Positions 48,302 through 61,759 of a stretch of DNA of 64,000 nt are shown here, in pieces (the stretch's first letter is position 1; the number at the start of each line of letters is the position of its first letter). The stretch lies in assembly GCA_041576165.1 (NCBI GenBank), contig JBFGLM010000001.1, positions 64,001 through 128,000 on the forward strand, written 5' to 3'. Below the pieces are notes generated by a model. That model was not told where the DNA came from, ran no database searches, and saw nothing but the letters and a program-made list of their open reading frames with translations. Made by a program: the position numbers and the translations under genes. The stretch is from Acidimicrobiia bacterium (GTDB lineage: Bacteria > Actinomycetota > Acidimicrobiia > Spongiisociales > Spongiisociaceae).

Positions 48302-50332
48302 ATGCATCCACCCCAACCCAAGAAGGTCCGGACCATCCGCTCGTTGCACGGTGAAGATTTCGTTGACGACTACAGCTGGTTGCGAGACCGCAACGACCCG
48401 GACACCATCGCATACCTCGCTGCCGAGAACGAGTACACAGAGAGGGCCACCGCTCACCTCGAGGATCTTCGCACCCAAATCTTCGCAGAGATCAAGACCC
48501 GCACTCAGGAAACCGATCTGTCCGCCCCCGCCAAACGCGGCGAATACTGGTATGCCTCCCGCACCGAGGAGGGCAAGCAGTACCCAACGCACGTGCGGAT
48601 GCGGGCCGAACCAGACGGTCCCGAAGAAGTTCTGCTCGACGTCAACGCGCTGGCTGCCGACCACGAATACCTGCGGGTCGGGGTCTTCAGCGTCTCCCCC
48701 GACGGGCAGATGCTCGCCTACTCGACCGACACCGATGGCAGCGAGAAATATACGATGCGGATCAGAGACCTCGCCGGCGGCGCCGATCTGGACGATGTCC
48801 TGGAGAACACGTACTACAGCGCGGCGTGGTCCGCTGATGGCCGCCACCTCTTCTACACGACCATCGACGCCGCGCACCGGCCGGACAAGATCTGGCGCCA
48901 CGCCCTCGGCACCGCGCAGTCGGAAGACGAACTCGTGCTGCATGAGCCGGATGACCGCATGTTCATTCACGTGACGACGAGCCAGGACGAGCAATATGTG
49001 ATCGCAGCCGCCGGCAGCCAGACGACGGCCGACGCCCGTTACATTCCCGCAGACCAACCAACGGCCGAGTGGCAATGGGTCCTCCCGCGGGAGCATGGCG
49101 TCGAATACCAGGCAGACCACAGAGAGGGGCGCTGGCTGGTGGTCACGAACGACGATGCGGTCAACGGCCGGCTTCTGTCCGTGTCGGTCGGCGACCCCGC
49201 CGACGTGATCGAGGTCATCCCGCACGACCCGGCCCGCAAGCTCAGCGGAGTAGTGGCCTTCTCCCAGCATGTCATCGTCTTCGGGCGCGGCGCCGGGCTC
49301 ACCGCAGTCACAATCCTCGCCGACGGCACCGATCCCCACGACCTCGACTTCGATGAACCGGTGTACACGGTCGGCCCTGAACGCAACCTCGAGTACGACA
49401 CAACAACCTTGCGGATCCACTACCAGTCGCTCGTGACGCCTCGCCGCATCATCGACGTGGACCTCACGACCGGCGAGCGGCGGGTCGTGAAGGAGACGCC
49501 CGTGCTCGGCGGTTTCCACTCGTCCGACTACACGTCGTCGCGTGACTGGGCGACGGCCGCCGACGGGACCCGGATCCCGATCTCCATCGTCCACCGCGCC
49601 GATCTGGACCGAACCCGGCCGGTTCCGGTATTGCTCTATGGCTACGGGTCGTACGAGATCCCGGTCGATCCCACCTTCTCGATCCCCCGCCTGTCGATCC
49701 TGGATCGGGGCGTCATGTTCGCGATCGCTCACATCCGGGGTGGAGGCGAGATGGGAAAGCCCTGGTACGAGTCCGGCAAGATGACCAACAAGGCGAACAC
49801 CTTCGAGGACTTCATCGCTTGTGCCCGCCATCTGATCGACACCGGCGTCACCACACCTGAACTGCTGGTTGCGCGAGGCGGATCAGCCGGCGGCTTGCTG
49901 ATCGGTGCCGTCGCCAACATGGCGCCGGAGCTGTTCAAGGCCTTGATGGCCCAGGTCCCGTTCGTCGACGTCGTCAACACCATGTTGGACGAGACCCTGC
50001 CGCTGACGGTGATCGAGTGGGAGGAATGGGGCAACCCCAAGATCGAGGAGCAGTACCGGTGGATCCGGGAGTACTCGCCCTACGACAACGTGGATGGCCG
50101 CGAGTACCCTGCGATGCTCGTCACCGCCGGGCTCAACGACCCGCGGGTCAGCTACTGGGAACCCGCCAAATGGGTCGCCAAACTGCGTGAAGTCGGCACC
50201 ACACGCGGACCGCTCCTCTTGAAGACCGAGATGGGAGCAGGCCATGCGGGACCCTCCGGCCGCTACGACGCTTGGAAGGACGAAGCGTTCGATCTGGCCT
50301 TCATGCTGGACCAGGTTGGGCTGGCGGGCTGA
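48302..50332 (+). CDS. ptrB: Oligopeptidase B / protease II (S9A)
   Basis: DDYSWLRD, YGYGSY, GGSAGG, DPRVSYWEPAKW and GAGH. Confidence 0.93.
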   Translation: MHPPQPKKVRTIRSLHGEDFVDDYSWLRDRNDPDTIAYLAAENEYTERATAHLEDLRTQIFAEIKTRTQETDLSAPAKRGEYWYASRTEEGKQYPTHVRMRAEPDGPEEVLLDVNALAADHEYLRVGVFSVSPDGQMLAYSTDTDGSEKYTMRIRDLAGGADLDDVLENTYYSAAWSADGRHLFYTTIDAAHRPDKIWRHALGTAQSEDELVLHEPDDRMFIHVTTSQDEQYVIAAAGSQTTADARYIPADQPTAEWQWVLPREHGVEYQADHREGRWLVVTNDDAVNGRLLSVSVGDPADVIEVIPHDPARKLSGVVAFSQHVIVFGRGAGLTAVTILADGTDPHDLDFDEPVYTVGPERNLEYDTTTLRIHYQSLVTPRRIIDVDLTTGERRVVKETPVLGGFHSSDYTSSRDWATAADGTRIPISIVHRADLDRTRPVPVLLYGYGSYEIPVDPTFSIPRLSILDRGVMFAIAHIRGGGEMGKPWYESGKMTNKANTFEDFIACARHLIDTGVTTPELLVARGGSAGGLLIGAVANMAPELFKALMAQVPFVDVVNTMLDETLPLTVIEWEEWGNPKIEEQYRWIREYSPYDNVDGREYPAMLVTAGLNDPRVSYWEPAKWVAKLREVGTTRGPLLLKTEMGAGHAGPSGRYDAWKDEAFDLAFMLDQVGLAG

Positions 50333-50357
50333 GCCGGCTCCCCCGGCCCCCGGCCGA

Positions 50358-51938
50358 TCAGCGAATGCCGACCGGCCGCCATCCTGGGTCGAATGTGGCC
50401 CCCCAGCTGTCGGACAAGCGTTGCTCTGCGAGCTGGCTCCAAGCCTGCAATGCACAGAACGGAGCACATTGCGGAGTGTCGCCGTTGCGGGTGCCCACGT
50501 GCACGCAACATTGCATCAGGCGCTCCTCGATCATGTTTGACATGTCCATGAACGGCTTGACCGTGAGCCGCACGATCCGCTCGGCCATCAGTGTTCGCAG
50601 CCGTTTGGCGCCGCCTCCCACCACCGCCCGACCGGCCATTCGCAACATGGCGGGTATTCCGAGGTCGCACGTGCGGCACACGATCTCGAACAGGTCTCCG
50701 ATCGTGGGGTGGGAGAGCGACTGTTGCTCCGACAGCAACCCGAGCAGGGAGACTCGGACCGAATCGCGCAGGTCGTTCATGATGTCGGAAGACGCGATGG
50801 TATTGGACACGAGTCCCAGGTGTTCGCGGAGGCGGTCATGGCCGATTGCGCGTACCAGCGACCGCCACGACCCATCGTCCTGTCTGATCATGTAGCCGAT
50901 AGAGCAGCAATGAGGGTGCGAGCAGGGCAGGGCGGTGAGGTCCTCCCACGTCACCACCCCGGCTGTCTGCGGTCCCAGCCGCCGCAACACGCCGCCATGG
51001 GTCAGGCGATCGCGGCGATCAATCGGTCCTGAGCGTCCTGAACCAAACTGCGGCTGGATCGACACCCCGCCGACGAAGGGAGTGTCGAGGGCGAGGCTCA
51101 CGACGGCGCCGATCTCGTCGTCGTTGACATCTTTTGCTGCCGTCATCGTGAGGGTCGTGAAGACACCGGCTTCGCTGAGCCGTGCTACCGCTCGCAGCTT
51201 CATTGCGCTGAGATCGGCACCCCGATGATGGCGGTACGTGGCCGAGCGGAGGCCGTCGAACTGGAGGTAGACCTCGACCCGGTCCCGTCGCGCTTCGAGC
51301 GCAGCGATCAATGAGTCGTCACGTGCCACCGCCACACCGTTGGTGTTGACCAGGATGCGGGTGATGGGACGAGCGGACAGCTCGTCGAGGATGGAGACGA
51401 AATCGGGGTGGAGCGTCGGCTCGCCGCCCGAGAGCATCACCACATCGAGATGATCCCCCTCACGCCCGAGGCGCTGGTCCACGTTGGCCAGCACCTCGCC
51501 CGGCGGGACGACACCGCCGGCATGGGGAGCGGAACCGGCGAAACACGTGGGGCAGCGCAGGTTGCACTCACTGATGATGTCCTCGAGCAGGATGCAGGTG
51601 TGCTGGGTCTGCAGCTCGCCCAGACCCTGCCGGTAGGCCAGGGGGATCTGGTCGTAGTTGCCGGGCGTGTCGGGCACATGCAGTTTGGTAGGGGCGGTCC
51701 AGGTCTCCAGATATCTCAAGATCTGCGGATCCTCGTCGTAGAGGGTTTCCACCCGTCCGTGTTCACGACACCCCCGCACCAGCCATACGCGATCGTCGCG
51801 AACCGACAGGTAACCTGACAACCGCTCGACCAGCTCCAGCGGCCGGTCCGGCCACTGGTCGTGGCAATCGGGGCAAAACGCAACGACGTAGCGGTGGATG
51901 AAATCGCCTCGGAGCGGCATCCCTCGGGCCACCGTCAT
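50358..51938 (-). CDS. Radical SAM enzyme of the tetraether synthase (Tes/GDGT-MAS, MJ0619)-like family
   Basis: N-terminal CPDC...CREHG, radical SAM motif CNLRCPTC, SGGEPTLHP, VYLQFDG, and C-terminal PCSHPHCC and CCVHV...PFC. Confidence 0.85.
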   Translation of the reverse strand: MTVARGMPLRGDFIHRYVVAFCPDCHDQWPDRPLELVERLSGYLSVRDDRVWLVRGCREHGRVETLYDEDPQILRYLETWTAPTKLHVPDTPGNYDQIPLAYRQGLGELQTQHTCILLEDIISECNLRCPTCFAGSAPHAGGVVPPGEVLANVDQRLGREGDHLDVVMLSGGEPTLHPDFVSILDELSARPITRILVNTNGVAVARDDSLIAALEARRDRVEVYLQFDGLRSATYRHHRGADLSAMKLRAVARLSEAGVFTTLTMTAAKDVNDDEIGAVVSLALDTPFVGGVSIQPQFGSGRSGPIDRRDRLTHGGVLRRLGPQTAGVVTWEDLTALPCSHPHCCSIGYMIRQDDGSWRSLVRAIGHDRLREHLGLVSNTIASSDIMNDLRDSVRVSLLGLLSEQQSLSHPTIGDLFEIVCRTCDLGIPAMLRMAGRAVVGGGAKRLRTLMAERIVRLTVKPFMDMSNMIEERLMQCCVHVGTRNGDTPQCAPFCALQAWSQLAEQRLSDSWGATFDPGWRPVGIR

Positions 51939-52294
51939 GCTCCCGAGAGCGAGGCGACGATCAGCGCCACGCATGTGCCGATCAGCACCAGCAGCACCCC
52001 GAGGCCGAGGAAGAAGCCGGTGAGGAACCTGCCCTGGGCCCGGCGGTAACCCCAAATGGGAATCAGAACGAACAGCGCCAGCGTCACCAGCCCGCCCAGG
52101 GAGGCCGCGCCCCGGGTGGCGCCATCGCTGCCGGTGGCGTTGGCAAGACCGGCGAGGAGGCCGCTGATGAGTGCCCCCCCGAACACCGCAACGAGGAACC
52201 CCAAAAACCCGGCCGTCTTCGGGTAGCGGGTTACGAAGGATCCGCCGCGGCCGTCGGGACGGCCGGGTCCCGCCGGTGGTGGCTGGTTGGTCAC
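51935..52294 (-). CDS. Small three-TM membrane protein with a single C-terminal Cys (candidate Lgt substrate)
   Basis: GTGA overlap with the Lgt-like stop and ATGA overlap with the radical SAM start; 119 aa ending YRRAQGRFLTGFFLGLGVLLVLIGTCVALIVASLSGA. Confidence 0.75.
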   Translation of the reverse strand: MTNQPPPAGPGRPDGRGGSFVTRYPKTAGFLGFLVAVFGGALISGLLAGLANATGSDGATRGAASLGGLVTLALFVLIPIWGYRRAQGRFLTGFFLGLGVLLVLIGTCVALIVASLSGA

Positions 52295-53076
52295 GCGATC
52301 CCCGGGACAGCTCGGCCGCGGCGGATCAGGCGCCATGTGATCGATACAACCACCACTGCGAATCCGGTCAGGAGGAACAGCTGGGATCCAGACATGCCGA
52401 ACCAGAGGGCCGGGTTGCCCCGGACGAATTCCAGCGCGAAGCGGGCGATGGCATAAGCGCCTACATACATGGGGAAGAGCCGTCCGGCGAAACGGGCGTC
52501 GTCCCGGACTCGCAACAGGAGCACCAGGGCCAGGACGTGGAACCCAATCTCGTAGAGAAACGAGGGATGCATCGGCAGCCCGAGCCGGCACTGGGGGCAG
52601 AACGGCATCTGCATGGCCTGCTCCGCGCTCACGGCCAGCCCCCAAGGAAGAGAGGTCGTGGTCCCGATCTGCTCGGTGAGGAAACACCCGATCCGGCCGA
52701 TCGCCATACCGAGGGCCACCGCCGGAGCGAAGAAGTCGCCGGTCGAACCACGATATCCGATCAGCTTCTTCGCCACGATCGCCCCTACGTACGCGCCGAC
52801 CAGGCCACCGAGAATGGACCGGCCGGCATGGGTGAAGAGCCCGGTGACAGTCGGTTCGGTCCCTTCGGCCAGGTACCGAATGCCGGTGCCCACCCGGGCG
52901 AACAACCCGCCCCCGACCAGCGCACCGGCCACCACCGTCCATAGTTCATCGCTCCACCGGCCCCGCCGGCGGGCCTCTAGCACGAACACCACACCCGCGG
53001 CGAGGACCCCGACCCCGATGAAGAACTCGTGGGTCGGGATGCTCAGCCCTCCCACCGTGAAGAGGACGGGGACCAT
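52291..53076 (-). CDS. Prolipoprotein diacylglyceryl transferase (Lgt)-like protein
   Basis: PVLFTVG..I.TH, GRIGCF, LPWG, HPSFLYE and RFALEFVRG. Leaderless TAGCGT-N6-ATG. Confidence 0.88.
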   Translation of the reverse strand: MVPVLFTVGGLSIPTHEFFIGVGVLAAGVVFVLEARRRGRWSDELWTVVAGALVGGGLFARVGTGIRYLAEGTEPTVTGLFTHAGRSILGGLVGAYVGAIVAKKLIGYRGSTGDFFAPAVALGMAIGRIGCFLTEQIGTTTSLPWGLAVSAEQAMQMPFCPQCRLGLPMHPSFLYEIGFHVLALVLLLRVRDDARFAGRLFPMYVGAYAIARFALEFVRGNPALWFGMSGSQLFLLTGFAVVVVSITWRLIRRGRAVPGIA

Positions 53077-53135
53077 GGGTTCACGCTAGCTGCGAACACG
53101 CCGGCGCGACCGGCGAGACCCTCACGAAGTTGGCT

Positions 53136-53807
53136 TCAGTCGCGGGCAAGCAGCTGGTCTGCCACTGCGTCCAGGTCGGGCGCGACGATATCGGGACGTT
53201 CGCTGACGGCGGTGAGATACATACCCGGGCGGGCGACGAACGCTCCCAACGCGCCGGCCCGCATTGCGCCGGTAACGTCCCAGTCGTGCGCGGCGATCAT
53301 GCGCAGCTCGCCGATCGGCCGACCCAGCCGCTCGGCCACGGCTCGATACGTCGCAGGGGCGGGCTTGAAAGCTTCCACCATCTCGACGGAGAACGTCTCA
53401 TCGAAGAGGTCGGCCAGGCCGGCGTTGGCCATCTGGTCAGCCACCATCGACCCGCTGGAGTTGGTGAGCGTGACCATCGCAAAGCCGGCGGATCGTATCC
53501 GTTCCAGGGCAGCCCGCACCTCCGGGTGCGGTGGCAGGGCGCGCATGCCGGCCACCACCTCCTGAGCAACTTCTTCGCCGAGTTCGATCCCGGCTCGTCG
53601 GGTAACCAGCAGCAACGCGTCGGTCCCCAGCTCGTCGAACGGCCGGTAGGCGCCAGTGAGGGTCGCAACGAGCGAGTTGCGGAGCATTTGCCCGAACCAC
53701 ACCGGCAACAGATCAACCGTCCCGACTGTTTTTTCAAAGGACGGGCGCAGCGCTCGGAGGTCGAGCAAGGTTTCGTTGACATCGAAGACAAGAGTTTCTC
53801 GGATCAT
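53136..53807 (-). CDS. Haloacid dehalogenase type II (HAD superfamily)
   Basis: FDVNETLLD, LTNS, FKPAP and AAHDWDVTGA. Confidence 0.92.
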   Translation of the reverse strand: MIRETLVFDVNETLLDLRALRPSFEKTVGTVDLLPVWFGQMLRNSLVATLTGAYRPFDELGTDALLLVTRRAGIELGEEVAQEVVAGMRALPPHPEVRAALERIRSAGFAMVTLTNSSGSMVADQMANAGLADLFDETFSVEMVEAFKPAPATYRAVAERLGRPIGELRMIAAHDWDVTGAMRAGALGAFVARPGMYLTAVSERPDIVAPDLDAVADQLLARD

Positions 53808-53886
53808 CCGGGTTCTCCTTGCGGGTGGCTCCAGACGGTCGCTGGCCGCCCGGGCCACGATACGAGTAGCGTGCCGCCCACGAACC

Positions 53887-54624
53887 ATGCCCGATCTGAG
53901 CCTGTTTGTGAACGACCTGGGCGATCCCGTGCCCGCTCTGACCGCCGACGAAATGCGAGAAGTCGACCGCCTCGCCATCGAGGTACACGGGCCGAGTCTC
54001 CTTCAAATGATGGAGAACGCCGGCCGCAACCTCGCCCTGAGCGCACTCGAGCTGTTGGGCAATCGCTGGCGCGATGGGCAACTTCTCGTGCTGGCTGGGA
54101 CCGGCGGCAATGGCGGCGGCGGGATCGCCGCCGCCCGGCACCTGGCCAATCGTGGGGCCGACGTGGCGATCGTCGTGACGAACATCGACGGACTCGAGGA
54201 GGTGCCGACGCTGCAGCTGGACATCTTCAGAGGCACCGACGGCCGCACGCTGGGAGGGTCCGAGCTCGCCTCCACCGAACCAGCGCTGGTGATCGACGCC
54301 ATAATCGGGTATTCCCTGCGAGGATCTCCCCGAGGGGCCGCACTCGACATGATCGAATTCGTCAACGAAAGTTCGGCGCCGGTGGTGTCCCTCGACACGC
54401 CCTCCGGCCTGGATGTCACCTCCGGCACCTGTCCGGGCGCGGTCGTCACGGCCACCACGACGGTCACCCTCGCATTGCCCAAATGCGGTCTCACCGCGCC
54501 GCAGGCCGGCGACGTCGTATTGGCCGACATAGGGATCCCGCCGATCGTGTACAGGTCGCTCGGGCTGGAGTTCACATCGCCCGTTTTCGACCACCGCTAT
54601 CGAGTCCCGCTGGGCCGCGCATGA
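53887..54624 (+). CDS. nnrE: NAD(P)H-hydrate epimerase (stand-alone YjeF-N)
   Basis: MREVD, MMENAG, GTGGNGGGG, IDAIIGYS and SLDTPSG. Confidence 0.88.
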   Translation: MPDLSLFVNDLGDPVPALTADEMREVDRLAIEVHGPSLLQMMENAGRNLALSALELLGNRWRDGQLLVLAGTGGNGGGGIAAARHLANRGADVAIVVTNIDGLEEVPTLQLDIFRGTDGRTLGGSELASTEPALVIDAIIGYSLRGSPRGAALDMIEFVNESSAPVVSLDTPSGLDVTSGTCPGAVVTATTTVTLALPKCGLTAPQAGDVVLADIGIPPIVYRSLGLEFTSPVFDHRYRVPLGRA

Positions 54625-60865: not shown

Positions 60866-61759
60866 TCAGGTCGCGGCCGGATCTAGCGCGGCGCCGATCT
60901 CACGATCGTTGGCCTCGCTGACCACCGGCATCCTGCGGGCAAAGACCCGGAGCAGAATGAGGCCGCCGATCCCCGCCGCCAGCCCGCTCCATTGGCTCCA
61001 GGTGAACGGGCCGAGGGTCGCATCACCGTTGACGTCGAGCGACAGGCGGGCGAAGTCGATGACGAACCGCTGGAAGCCGTACCAGGTCACCCAGGTGGCA
61101 AACAGCTGGCCGTAATGCAGCGGGCGCCCGGACCGGTACAACCAGACGAGAAACACCAACAGCAGGGCTGCGCCCACCAGGTCGTACAACGCCGTGTGGT
61201 GGTAGACGCCGCACAGGCCGTCGGCCCCCGCAGTCGCACATTCCAGCGCATCGTGCTGAGGGGCGACGTCGTAGCCGGGTTTGATGCCGAAGCCGAGGAA
61301 GAACGTCGTTGGGCCGCCGAGGTGCTCGACGATGGCCAGGTCACCGATTCTCCCGACAACGGTACCGAGCGCCATGCCAAAAGAGGCCATGTCCGCGTAG
61401 GCGAGGAACGGAAGCTGCAGCCGGCGCAAACGCAGCCATCCCCCCAGAATGCCGCCGGCATAGCCGCCCAGTATGGAATACGAGCCGGCGGGGTTGAATG
61501 CGTCGCCCAATCCAAAACCAGGATCACCGAGGTGGGCGGGCACCGTCAGGAAACGGGCGCCCAGAATGGCACCAATCAGGGCCCACGTCAGTACCGAGGC
61601 AAACTTCTCTGCGTCGTAGCCCCGAGACCGGACATAGCGGGTGGCCAGCCATGCGCCGGCGAGAAAGCCCAGGGCAGCAAACACCCCGTGCAACGAGAGG
61701 CGGATCGGCCCCACCTCGAAGATGGGTATCGGAGGATATGAGATTGCGCCCAGCACCAC
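60866..61759 (-). CDS. lgt: Prolipoprotein diacylglyceryl transferase family protein (probable housekeeping Lgt)
   Basis: PIFEVGPIRLSLHG, GRIGD...EHLG, HHTALYD and RFVIDFAR. GTG start at 61759 or 61756. Confidence 0.8.
   Translation of the reverse strand: MVLGAISYPPIPIFEVGPIRLSLHGVFAALGFLAGAWLATRYVRSRGYDAEKFASVLTWALIGAILGARFLTVPAHLGDPGFGLGDAFNPAGSYSILGGYAGGILGGWLRLRRLQLPFLAYADMASFGMALGTVVGRIGDLAIVEHLGGPTTFFLGFGIKPGYDVAPQHDALECATAGADGLCGVYHHTALYDLVGAALLLVFLVWLYRSGRPLHYGQLFATWVTWYGFQRFVIDFARLSLDVNGDATLGPFTWSQWSGLAAGIGGLILLRVFARRMPVVSEANDREIGAALDPAAT

What the first reader, a model, noticed from the sequence alone, without database searches (positions are those of the whole stretch)
50358..53076. 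Candidate undescribed system: Lgt-like transferase + small Cys membrane protein + tetraether-synthase-like radical SAM
Seen: three genes fused by 4-nt overlaps (GTGA at 52291-94, ATGA at 51935-38) behind their own leaderless promoter, with a separate lgt-family gene at 60866-61759. Knowledge: Lgt transfers diacylglyceryl from phosphatidylglycerol to a Cys thiol. The archaeal Tes/GDGT-MAS radical SAM family forms C-C bonds between lipid tail termini. Tes-like genes occur in bacteria, but I know of no established function for Lgt-linked ones. Inference: a dedicated RiPP-like pathway in which the Lgt paralog lipidates the small protein and the radical SAM crosslinks or cyclises the acyl tails, giving a macrocyclic or membrane-spanning lipopeptide anchor. 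Alternatively, the small protein is a carrier for making membrane-spanning lipids.
Basis: partly seen in the sequence, partly recalled or inferred. Interest (0 to 1): 0.88.

Follow-up and report, generated by a model that had tools for sequence, protein, structure and literature searches.

The report
Lgt-like and radical SAM cassette
A lipid-transferase paralog, a tiny membrane protein with one invariant cysteine and a tetraether-synthase-like radical SAM enzyme form a tightly conserved, undescribed gene cassette that probably makes an unusual lipid-modified membrane protein.

Summary
On the minus strand, 50358-53076 carries three genes joined by 4-nt overlaps: an Lgt-family transferase, a 119-aa membrane protein with a single Cys, and a 526-aa radical SAM enzyme.

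The linkage is conserved. The Lgt-like gene flanks the rSAM in 74 of 80 related loci from at least six phyla. A small ORF ending in a TM helix with G-x-C lies in 82 of 87 cassettes (background: 6 in 644 kb). In 301 genomes of the phylum, the same 7 carry both enzymes. Natural Lgt-like::rSAM fusions exist.

The Lgt paralog keeps the phosphatidylglycerol-binding residues (R143, R239, Y235) but always has N146C, with Y26H and H103L. M. smegmatis MSMEG_5408 is reported to carry Y26H and N146C.

The rSAM has the full GDGT-MAS fold (TM 0.72-0.77). It forms its own long-branched clade, far below the Tes and TrsS cut-offs.

The small protein's Cys sits about 21 residues after the last cytoplasmic K/R and about 10 before the C-terminus. 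This resembles a signal peptide, but the motif is not a canonical lipobox.

Best reading (about 0.4): dedicated S-diacylglycerylation of this Cys, coupled to radical chemistry on lipid tails. No chemistry was tested. I found no description in the searched literature.

The parts
52291..53076 (-). Lgt-family integral membrane transferase paralog (261 aa) of the N146C / Y26H / H103L class. The active-site Cys131 codon is at 52686-52684.
   Evidence: PF01790 at 115.2 bits, but TIGR00544 at 73.5, below the 118.9 cut-off. The only significant PDB fold match is E. coli Lgt 5azb (E 1.4e-7, TM 0.60-0.65). Motif residues come from an alignment with E. coli Lgt.
51935..52294 (-). Small membrane protein 'A' (119 aa, GTG start). 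It has a Pro-rich N-terminus, predicted TM helices and a last helix carrying G-T-C. The invariant Cys108 codon is at 51973-51971.
   Evidence: No Pfam or NCBIfam family. In alignment A2 of 55 homologous-position ORFs, only M1 and C108 are invariant and G106 and G93 reach 90% or more. An A-like ORF is present in 82 of 87 cassettes.
50358..51938 (-). Radical SAM enzyme (526 aa) with the GDGT-MAS/MJ0619 fold. It has a rubredoxin-like CX2C...CX2H site (C22, C25, C57, H60), a CX3CX2C motif at C125-C132 (51566-51543) and C-terminal cluster cysteines.
   Evidence: PF04055 and PF23545. TrsS 198.7 and Tes 150.9 bits, both below their cut-offs. PDB 7tol by sequence, E 3.7e-30. AF2 model pLDDT 87; Foldseek 7tom/7tol TM 0.72-0.77 over about 535 columns. 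Invariant Cys/His in A3.
53077..53135 (-). 59-nt spacer upstream of the operon, with a TANNNT-like hexamer TAGCGT (53088-53083) 6 nt before the ATG. It is a possible, unverified promoter for a leaderless transcript.
   Evidence: Direct reading. The consensus scan found no sigma-70-like promoter here.
60866..61759 (-). Stand-alone Lgt-family gene. It is not part of the cassette and is presumably the housekeeping Lgt, but it is itself non-canonical (H26, L103, D146, D243).
   Evidence: PF01790 at 115.1 bits. It is one of three LGT matches in the genome. One LspA (PF01252) gene lies elsewhere in the genome.

Best explanation
This is a self-contained, patchily distributed membrane cassette for modifying a dedicated small protein. 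The small protein A inserts with its last helix running from the cytoplasm outward, which places its invariant Cys near the outer face of the membrane. The Lgt paralog uses phosphatidylglycerol, or a tailored derivative of it, and transfers the diacylglyceryl group to that Cys as a thioether, as Lgt does for lipoproteins. The radical SAM enzyme sits at the cytoplasmic C-terminus of the Lgt paralog. It performs GDGT-MAS-like radical chemistry on hydrocarbon tails, either before transfer (on the donor lipid) or after transfer (on the protein-bound lipid). The product would be a small membrane protein carrying an unusual lipid, possibly macrocyclic or membrane-spanning. Shown here: gene order and translational coupling, conservation of the triad, residue conservation, folds, and the existence of fusions. 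Inferred: every chemical step, the lipid donor, the order of the steps and the product.
For: (1) Linkage. An Lgt-like gene lies next to the rSAM in 74 of 80 related loci. Five of the six exceptions have under 300 nt of upstream DNA.
(2) Genome-level co-occurrence. In 301 genomes of the phylum, the same 7 handles hold the rSAM ortholog (55% identity or more) and the Lgt paralog (E <= 1e-35), and the coordinates are adjacent in all of them. Eight distant rSAM homologs (27-31% identity) have no Lgt-like gene in their 14-kb loci.
(3) Fusions. Two predicted natural proteins join Lgt-like to the rSAM N-terminus (772 and 760 aa). This fits a cytoplasmic Lgt C-terminus.
(4) Protein A. An A-like ORF is present in 82 of 87 cassettes, always beside the Lgt-like or the rSAM gene, against 6 such ORFs in 644,023 nt of same-strand flank. 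Its start commonly overlaps the Lgt-like stop by 4 nt. Its only invariant residue is the Cys (55 of 55; mean column identity 15%).
(5) Position of the Cys. It lies a median of 21 residues after the last K/R (range 14-32) and a median of 10 before the C-terminus. The shortest A proteins (35-40 aa) amount to a basic n-region, a hydrophobic h-region, G-x-C and a short tail.
(6) Lgt paralog active site. It keeps G142, R143, G145, G154, Y235, R239, E243 and R246 in 74 of 74 sequences. It has C146 in 74 of 74, H26 in 73 and L103 in 72. The passages read in bioRxiv 10.1101/2025.03.27.645668 assign R143 and R239 to positioning the phosphatidylglycerol phosphate.
(7) rSAM. It has the full-length GDGT-MAS fold and conserved rubredoxin, RS and C-terminal cluster ligands. 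GDGT-MAS binds two lipids and forms tail-to-tail C-C bonds (passages read in PMC9433317).
Against: The motif is not a lipobox. Gly is at -2 in 79 of 82 tails, and -1 is mostly bulky (L, F, V, I, Y).
The canonical Lgt residues Y26, H103 and N146 are all replaced. The M. smegmatis homologue reported with Y26H and N146C is described as having 'presumed low Lgt activity'.
There is a topology problem. The Cys and the Lgt active site are on the outer side of the membrane, while the Fe-S enzyme must be cytoplasmic.
The rSAM clade is very divergent (199 and 151 bits against TrsS and Tes, versus 293-356 bits for its non-linked relatives). It lacks the N-terminal auxiliary-cluster cysteines in the alignment.
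Its nearest non-linked relatives sit beside methyltransferase/MauE or molybdopterin oxidoreductase/DUF2064 genes, not beside recognisable lipid genes.
A second conserved small protein (B), found after the rSAM in 64 of 80 loci and absent from this genome, has no role in the model.
No expression or chemical data exist.
Confidence: 0.4

Rival explanations
1. Lipid-only pathway. The Lgt paralog acts as a phosphatidylglycerol-binding and presenting (or transient covalent, via Cys146) partner. It feeds lipid tails to the membrane-tethered rSAM, which makes a modified free phospholipid such as a macrocyclic, diabolic-acid-type or membrane-spanning lipid. A and B are small structural or regulatory subunits of this complex. 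The invariant Cys of A would be a catalytic, redox or metal-binding residue rather than a lipidation site.
For: Lgt-like::rSAM fusions point to a stable complex. Cys146 is invariant in the Lgt cavity, and most members have CPxC in the reduced head domain. B has two nearly invariant Cys (64 of 64 and 63 of 64). The Tes, GDGT-MAS and Mss precedents all act on free lipids. The motif is not a lipobox.
Against: Structural subunits are usually better conserved than A (15% mean column identity, length 35 to over 260 aa). Several cassettes carry two A-like ORFs (5 loci), which looks more like substrates. The fixed K/R-to-Cys spacing mimics an Lgt acceptor. I know of no membrane-spanning lipids reported from Nocardia, Mycobacterium or Nonomuraea (recalled, not searched).
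Confidence: 0.25
2. RiPP-like peptide chemistry. The rSAM acts on the peptide itself, for example a thioether or C-C link at or near the Cys of A. The Lgt paralog adds the lipid. After cleavage, the short C-terminal segment (about 10 residues) is released or displayed as a small lipopeptide.
For: A resembles a precursor. It is hypervariable, has one invariant residue, sometimes occurs in several copies, and is translationally coupled to the enzymes. After GDGT-MAS, the next-best fold matches of the rSAM core are the peptide maturases SkfB and SuiB, at TM 0.34.
Against: The full-length fold match is to a lipid enzyme, not to SPASM or twitch peptide maturases. No protease or exporter gene is conserved in the 80 loci (clustering). 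The bulky -1 residues argue against LspA cleavage (LspA's preference for small -1 residues is recalled). The rSAM is 60-68% identical across phyla while the A tails vary, which fits an invariant non-peptide substrate.
Confidence: 0.12
3. Ordinary redundancy. The gene is only a second housekeeping Lgt, and its neighbours are unrelated genes that happen to lie beside it.
For: Databases name the family 'prolipoprotein diacylglyceryl transferase'. One paper suggests that M. smegmatis MSMEG_5408 is redundant with MSMEG_3222.
Against: Adjacency in 74 of 80 loci across phyla, identical presence and absence in 301 genomes, and natural fusions. N146C is family-specific and invariant.
Confidence: 0.03

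Closest known systems
Lgt, phosphatidylglycerol:prolipoprotein diacylglyceryl transferase (E. coli Lgt, PDB 5azb)
   Same: It has the Pfam LGT domain, the same fold (the only significant PDB hit) and the N-out/C-in charge pattern. G104 (68 of 74), G142, R143, G145, G154, Y235, R239, E243 and R246 are retained.
   Different: Y26H, H103L and N146C are fixed in the family. The periplasmic head domain is much reduced and usually carries CPxC. The score is below the TIGR00544 cut-off. The gene is tied to a dedicated mini-protein and an rSAM rather than acting on the general lipoproteome.
MSMEG_5408, the second Lgt homologue of Mycolicibacterium smegmatis
   Same: The passages read in bioRxiv 10.1101/2025.03.27.645668 report Y26H and N146C, which are among the substitutions fixed in this family. 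Close family members occur in many Mycobacterium and Mycolicibacterium species.
   Different: I could not fetch the M. smegmatis locus, so membership and the neighbouring genes are inferred, not shown. The papers treat it as a weak or redundant Lgt and mention no rSAM or small-protein partner in the passages I read.
GDGT-MAS / Tes (archaeal tetraether lipid synthase, MJ0619; PDB 7tol, 7tom)
   Same: Full-length fold (TM 0.72-0.77). Rubredoxin-like CX2C...CX2H site, CX3CX2C motif, and the C-terminal FMD...CC...PFC cluster region.
   Different: 21% identity. Tes HMM 150.9 bits against a cut-off of 450. The N-terminal auxiliary-cluster Cys triad is not aligned to any Cys. It is a bacterial, Lgt-linked clade on a very long branch. 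The substrate is unknown.
TrsS (NF045646, radical SAM (seleno)protein) and other bacterial Tes homologs; Mss of Thermotoga
   Same: TrsS is the best-scoring NCBIfam model (198.7 bits). Bacterial Tes homologs have been proposed to make membrane-spanning lipids (PMC8941075 passages), and Mss makes diabolic-type diacids (PMC13459092 passages).
   Different: The score is far below the TrsS cut-off of 490, and there is no in-frame TGA. In the one review passage I saw, TrsS appears only as a table entry with no function given. Non-linked actinobacterial relatives score 293-356 bits and have other neighbours. I did not compare the protein with Mss sequences.
Bacterial lipoprotein signal peptides (lipobox) and C-terminal sorting or lipidation signals (PGF-CTERM/archaeosortase, recalled)
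   Same: A basic n-region, a hydrophobic h-region of about 20 residues, then an invariant Cys.
   Different: The signal is at the C-terminus of A and would leave only about 10 residues beyond the Cys. Gly is at -2 and a bulky residue at -1, instead of L-[AS]-[GA]-C (the lipobox consensus is recalled). No sortase-like gene is present.

Membership tests
Lgt (PF01790 / TIGR00544) | Match to the Pfam LGT model above its gathering score | tested here: met
   115.2 bits against 24.9, covering residues 3-247.
Lgt (PF01790 / TIGR00544) | Match to the NCBIfam equivalog TIGR00544 above its cut-off | tested here: not met
   73.5 bits against 118.9. The stand-alone Lgt of the window also fails, at 72.1 bits.
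Lgt (PF01790 / TIGR00544) | The 13-residue Lgt motif Y26 H103 G104 G142 R143 G145 N146 E151 G154 Y235 R239 E243 R246, as defined in bioRxiv 10.1101/2025.03.27.645668 | tested here: not met
   Of 74 sequences: G142, R143, G145, G154, Y235, R239, E243 and R246 are present in 74. G104 is present in 68. Position 26 is H in 73, position 103 is L in 72 and position 146 is C in 74. Position 151 varies, but an invariant Glu lies one position earlier.
Lgt (PF01790 / TIGR00544) | Lgt fold | tested here: met
   AF2 model pLDDT 85. Foldseek against the PDB: 5azb at E 1.4e-7 and TM 0.60-0.65; no other hit at E <= 0.001.
Lgt (PF01790 / TIGR00544) | Transfer of diacylglycerol from phosphatidylglycerol to a Cys thiol | not testable with these tools
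   This needs biochemistry.
Tes / GDGT-MAS (NF045702; PDB 7tol) | Match to the Tes equivalog model above its cut-off | tested here: not met
   150.9 bits against 450, and only residues 20-343 are matched.
Tes / GDGT-MAS (NF045702; PDB 7tol) | Full-length GDGT-MAS fold with rubredoxin, RS and C-terminal cluster domains | tested here: met
   TM 0.72-0.77 over about 535 columns; the next hit has TM 0.34. C22, C25, C57, H60, C125, C129, C132, C339, C344, C477 and C495 are invariant in A3.
Tes / GDGT-MAS (NF045702; PDB 7tol) | N-terminal auxiliary [Fe4S4] cluster bound by three Cys and a His (PMC9433317 passages) | tested here: not met
   In the phmmer alignment to 7tol, the archaeal C-x3-C-x2-C stretch faces 'PLAYRQGLGELQT', which has no Cys. 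This rests on one pairwise alignment, so confidence is moderate.
Tes / GDGT-MAS (NF045702; PDB 7tol) | C-C coupling of lipid tail termini | not testable with these tools
   This needs anaerobic enzymology and lipid mass spectrometry.
TrsS (NF045646) | Match above the cut-off; selenocysteine form | tested here: not met
   198.7 bits against 490. The ORF has no in-frame stop.
Bacterial lipoprotein precursor (for protein A) | N-terminal signal peptide ending in the lipobox [LVI][ASTVI][GAS]C (consensus recalled) | tested here: not met
   The n-region, h-region and Cys are present, but at the C-terminal end of A. Position -2 is Gly in 79 of 82 tails, and -1 is L, F, V, I, A, Y, T or P in 73 of 82.

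The most novel reading that the evidence does not exclude
This is a previously unrecognised post-translational lipid modification. A dedicated Lgt paralog puts a diacylglyceryl group on an intramembrane Cys of its own mini-protein. A GDGT-MAS-like radical SAM enzyme then joins hydrocarbon tails, either within that lipid or to a lipid of the opposite leaflet. The result would be the first protein-bound macrocyclic or membrane-spanning lipid anchor in bacteria. The cassette occurs in aerobic actinomycetes, including many mycobacteria, and in at least five other phyla.
Probability: 0.2. Interest if true: 0.92.

Novelty: new variant of a known kind. Interest (0 to 1): 0.8.

Why it matters
It would give a function to a widespread Lgt paralog that has so far been written off as a weak duplicate, MSMEG_5408 being the probable example. 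It would also give the first genomic handle on what one large bacterial branch of the tetraether-synthase superfamily does. It defines two new small-protein families (A and B). It offers a compact cassette of three or four genes that can be expressed and assayed directly. If the product is a protein-linked, tail-coupled lipid, it would connect bacterial lipoprotein biogenesis with archaeal-type membrane-spanning lipid chemistry. It would also bear on the search for bacterial sources of membrane-spanning lipids.

Tried and rejected
Complex prediction of the Lgt paralog (alignment A1) with protein A (A2, residues 20-119) returned no verdict: ipSAE 0.01 and 0.00 against a mark of 0.32, and the controls were not run. 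This counts neither for nor against binding.

Sequencing runs: no RNA holder is listed for 50300-53200. I therefore did not lay reads, and expression and the transcription start remain unknown.

Promoter scan: no sigma-70-like site was found.

ESM Atlas search for protein B found only unnamed 'hypothetical protein' clusters. Pfam and NCBIfam gave nothing credible for A or B.

Literature: 'tetraether' + 'radical SAM' + 'Lgt' + 'bacteria' gave 0 papers. 'Lgt' + 'radical SAM' + 'lipoprotein' gave 2 irrelevant papers, and adding 'co-occur' gave 0. 'diacylglyceryl transferase' / 'radical SAM' / 'gene cluster' / 'membrane-spanning' gave nothing relevant. 'MSMEG_540' + 'radical SAM' gave 0. A search for MSMEG_5405, 5406, 5407 and 5409 found only MSMEG_5406, listed as a hypothetical protein repressed by TPEN. 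I could not link that gene to the cassette. The 2012 J Bacteriol paper on mycobacterial Lgt is not held.

Supplements are closed. Suppl. Fig. 5 of bioRxiv 10.1101/2025.03.27.645668 (Lgt motif variants on a tree) and Suppl. Fig. 4 of PMC8941075 (bacterial Tes homologs) may already display these clades, and I could not see them.

A phylogeny against archaeal Tes and Mss sequences was not possible because no tool gave me those sequences. I used HMM scores, the PDB alignment, the fold match and a tree rooted on 8 distant actinobacterial homologs instead.

An ICMT/PEMT-like methyltransferase lies upstream of the C68 copy. I considered it as a CaaX-like partner and dropped it, because the clustering of the 80 loci found no such conserved neighbour.

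P0245 (488 aa) looks like a deletion or assembly chimera of the Lgt-like and rSAM genes. I did not count it as a fusion.


Full report
WHAT IS THERE. The minus strand of 50358-53076 carries three ORFs. The first is a 261-aa Lgt-family protein (52291-53076). The second is a 119-aa protein that starts at the GTG at 52294 and ends at 51935. The third is a 526-aa radical SAM protein (51938-50358).

Pfam gives LGT (115.2 bits) for the first ORF, nothing for the second, and Radical_SAM plus the MJ0619-type zinc ribbon PF23545 for the third. NCBIfam places the rSAM nearest TrsS (198.7 bits, cut-off 490) and Tes (150.9 bits, cut-off 450). It places the Lgt-like protein below the TIGR00544 cut-off (73.5 against 118.9).

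The flanking genes are unrelated housekeeping genes: a HAD hydrolase 59 nt upstream on the same strand, a convergent prolyl oligopeptidase, NAD kinase, an HtrA-like protease, MscS, a CaCA exchanger, a stand-alone Lgt and heme O synthase.

The promoter claim could not be verified. The scan found no sigma-70-like site. Only a TAGCGT hexamer 6 nt before the ATG can be read directly.

THE GENOME HAS TWO COPIES. The assembly is a MAG (96.5% complete, 7.5% contamination). It has three LGT-family genes and two rSAMs of this type. The second pair is on contig C68, where the Lgt-like stop overlaps the rSAM start. A short A-like ORF lies directly upstream of that Lgt-like gene (C68:16499-16651). In the tree the two rSAM copies are not sisters. 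The C68 copy is therefore either an old paralog or comes from a contaminating organism.

THE LINKAGE IS CONSERVED. A scan of one genome per species found 324 relatives of the rSAM, and the best 80 were kept (60-68% identity). They come from Actinomycetota (Nocardia, Mycobacterium/Mycolicibacterium, Nonomuraea, Agromyces, Janibacter, Acidimicrobiia and others), Chloroflexota, Acidobacteriota, Gemmatimonadota and Dormibacterota, plus single MAGs labelled Pseudomonadota and Bacillota.

An Lgt-like gene lies beside the rSAM on the same strand in 74 of the 80 loci. Five of the six exceptions have under 300 nt of upstream DNA. One (L055) has 6 kb upstream and no Lgt-like gene. In five Agromyces loci the Lgt-like gene lies downstream of the rSAM.

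In an even sample of 301 genomes of the window's phylum, 16 have an rSAM match at E <= 1e-20. Seven of these, including the window's genome, have 55% identity or more. Exactly those seven handles have the Lgt paralog at E <= 1e-35, at adjacent coordinates.

I fetched eight of the nine distant homologs (27-31% identity). None has an Lgt-like gene within its 14-kb locus. They score 293-356 bits on the TrsS and Tes models. Their neighbours are class-I methyltransferase and MauE genes, or a molybdopterin oxidoreductase and DUF2064.

The tree has 85 rows: 75 of the 80 loci, the two own copies and the 8 distant homologs. Five loci were left out because their ORFs were incomplete. The 77 Lgt-linked sequences form one clade (SH-aLRT 100), separated from the distant homologs by a very long branch, and the branches inside the clade are short. 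The non-actinobacterial members form one subgroup inside actinobacterial diversity. Together with about 2% occupancy of the phylum sample, this suggests horizontal spread of a strongly constrained module.

Two predicted natural proteins (772 and 760 aa, about 54% identical to the window's Lgt paralog) fuse a complete Lgt-like domain to a complete rSAM. I could not inspect their contigs.

THE SMALL PROTEIN (A). tblastn did not detect A. However, the gap between the Lgt-like and rSAM genes nearly always holds an ORF whose start overlaps the Lgt-like stop by 4 nt.

I aligned 55 such ORFs: the window's plus 54 loci in the order Lgt-A-rSAM. L073, L076 and L079 were left out. Only the initiator Met and Cys108 are invariant. 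Gly106 and Gly93 reach 90% or more, and mean column identity is 15%.

Where the Lgt-like gene abuts the rSAM, an A-like ORF lies directly upstream of the Lgt-like gene instead. In Agromyces it follows the Lgt-like gene.

I then applied a simple rule: a Cys within the last 45 residues, a 15-residue hydrophobic stretch before it, and a Gly in positions -3 to -1. By this rule 82 of 87 cassettes have an A-like ORF. The 87 are the 80 loci, the 2 own copies and 5 from the phylum sample. The same rule finds 6 such ORFs in 644,023 nt of same-strand flank. Of the five misses, two have no upstream DNA, two have the Gly at -4, and one (L024) has none.

The gene orders are Lgt-A-rSAM in 57, A-Lgt-rSAM in 14, rSAM...Lgt-A in 5, Lgt-rSAM-A in 2, and A-rSAM with no Lgt-like gene seen in 4.

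Across 82 distinct tails, the last K/R lies a median of 21 residues before the Cys (range 14-32). A median of 10 residues follow the Cys (range 4-42). Position -2 is Gly in 79 of 82, though this count is partly built into the rule. Position -1 is mostly bulky and hydrophobic. A ranges from 35-40 aa (a bare basic-hydrophobic-GxC-tail unit) to over 260 aa with Pro-rich N-termini. Five loci have two A-like ORFs.

By the positive-inside rule (my inference), the last helix runs from inside to outside. The Cys would then sit near the outer membrane face, where the Lgt active site is thought to act.

THE LGT PARALOG. I aligned 74 family members with E. coli Lgt: 72 loci plus the two own copies. L058 and L078 were left out because their hits are split. 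G142, R143, G145, G154, Y235, R239, E243 and R246 are present in 74 of 74, and G104 in 68. Position 26 is His in 73, position 103 is Leu in 72 and position 146 is Cys in 74. An invariant Glu sits one position before E151. The periplasmic head domain is much reduced and carries CPxC in most, but not all, members.

The passages I read in bioRxiv 10.1101/2025.03.27.645668 define this 13-residue motif. They assign R143 and R239 to positioning the phosphatidylglycerol phosphate. [quoted passage not shown] Another preprint treats MSMEG_5408 as possibly redundant or as having a different lipid preference.

Close relatives of the paralog occur in many Mycobacterium and Mycolicibacterium species under the plain name 'prolipoprotein diacylglyceryl transferase'. 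I infer, but did not show, that MSMEG_5408 belongs to this family.

The AF2 model (pLDDT 85) matches only E. coli Lgt in the PDB at E <= 0.001.

The window's stand-alone Lgt also has H26 and L103, but it has D146. The H26/L103 pair is therefore not unique to the linked family, whereas C146 is. One LspA gene is present in the genome.

THE RADICAL SAM ENZYME. The AF2 model (pLDDT 87) matches GDGT-MAS (7tom, 7tol) over its whole length, with TM 0.72-0.77. The next hit, SkfB, has TM 0.34 and covers only the core.

Several residues are invariant across the 42-sequence alignment that includes the distant homologs. These are the rubredoxin-type C22/C25/C57/H60, the RS motif C125/C129/C132 and the C-terminal cysteines C339/C344/C477/C495. 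They correspond to motifs described for GDGT-MAS in the passages I read.

A FOURTH COMPONENT ELSEWHERE (B). A protein of about 100 aa follows the rSAM in 64 of 80 loci. Its consensus is DPLRLC...GP...Y.rA.r.GL..s.C.L.DtRlVl.YL, with Cys in 64 of 64 and 63 of 64 sequences. Of the 16 loci without it, four have too little downstream DNA or an incomplete rSAM ORF (the rSAM ORF runs off the locus in two; 203 and 341 nt remain in the other two). Twelve have 3 kb or more downstream, and nine of those twelve are Mycobacterium or Mycolicibacterium. B was not found in the window's genome; the best hit has E 0.099. B has no Pfam or NCBIfam family.

HOW IT MOST LIKELY WORKS. The data show a functional unit made of the Lgt paralog, A and the rSAM. 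The two enzymes are probably in physical contact, given the fusions. The only constrained feature of A is a Cys held at a fixed membrane depth. The simplest chemistry consistent with the families is this: the paralog transfers a diacylglyceryl group to that Cys, and the rSAM performs GDGT-MAS-like chemistry on hydrocarbon tails. I give this reading about 0.4.

The order of steps is open. Letting the rSAM modify the donor phospholipid at the cytoplasmic face before transfer would remove the topology conflict.

The rivals are a lipid-only pathway in which A and B are subunits (0.25), peptide-directed RiPP chemistry with release of a short lipopeptide (0.12), and mere Lgt redundancy (0.03). The remainder is unassigned.

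The main counter-evidence is as follows. The motif is not a lipobox. Y26, H103 and N146 are replaced. The rSAM clade is very divergent. The nearest non-linked relatives lack any recognisable lipid-gene context. There are no expression or chemical data.

NOVELTY. NCBIfam (release of June 2026) and Pfam have no model specific to the paralog, to the rSAM clade, or to A or B. None of my literature searches found a paper that links Lgt with a Tes-like rSAM.

I rate the finding a new variant of a known kind: Lgt-type protein lipidation with a dedicated substrate and an added radical SAM partner. It would become categorically new if a protein-bound, tail-coupled lipid were demonstrated.

Noticed in passing
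own genome contig C68 (L006: 6500-9026; outside the window): This is a second complete cassette in the order A-Lgt-rSAM (rSAM 60% identical to the window's). An ICMT/PEMT-like methyltransferase lies just upstream (L006:5890-6525) and gpsA lies convergent downstream. In the tree the two rSAM copies are not sisters, so this copy may be an old paralog or may come from the 7.5% contamination.
   Followed up: partly
L007-L086, directly after the rSAM (e.g. L038:7560-7865): A second small membrane protein family (B, about 100 aa) has the motif DPLRLC...RSKCxLxDxR and two nearly invariant Cys. It is present in 64 of 80 loci and has no Pfam or NCBIfam family. It was not found in the window's genome or in nine Mycobacterium/Mycolicibacterium loci.
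   Followed up: partly
proteins P0243, P0244 (metagenomic); P0245: P0243 and P0244 are predicted natural fusions of a complete Lgt-like domain to a complete rSAM (772 and 760 aa). P0245 (488 aa) looks like a deletion or assembly chimera of the two genes. Their contigs could not be inspected.
   Followed up: partly
window 60866-61759 (-): The stand-alone, presumably housekeeping Lgt is itself non-canonical (H26, L103, D146, D243). It scores below the TIGR00544 cut-off, yet the genome has a normal LspA gene.
   Followed up: partly
These are other uncharacterised branches of the superfamily.
   Followed up: partly
L055 (Oscillochloridaceae MAG): This locus has the rSAM, an A-like ORF upstream and a B gene downstream, but no Lgt-like gene within 6 kb upstream. 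It is the only locus with enough flank that lacks one.
   Followed up: no
literature lead (M. smegmatis): MSMEG_5406, two genes from the Lgt homologue MSMEG_5408, is listed as a hypothetical protein repressed about 9-fold by the zinc chelator TPEN (PMC7174638, passages read). Whether it belongs to the cassette is unknown.
   Followed up: no
window 53136-53978 (-): A HAD-family hydrolase gene ends 59 nt upstream of the operon on the same strand. It is not conserved next to the cassette in other genomes.
   Followed up: partly
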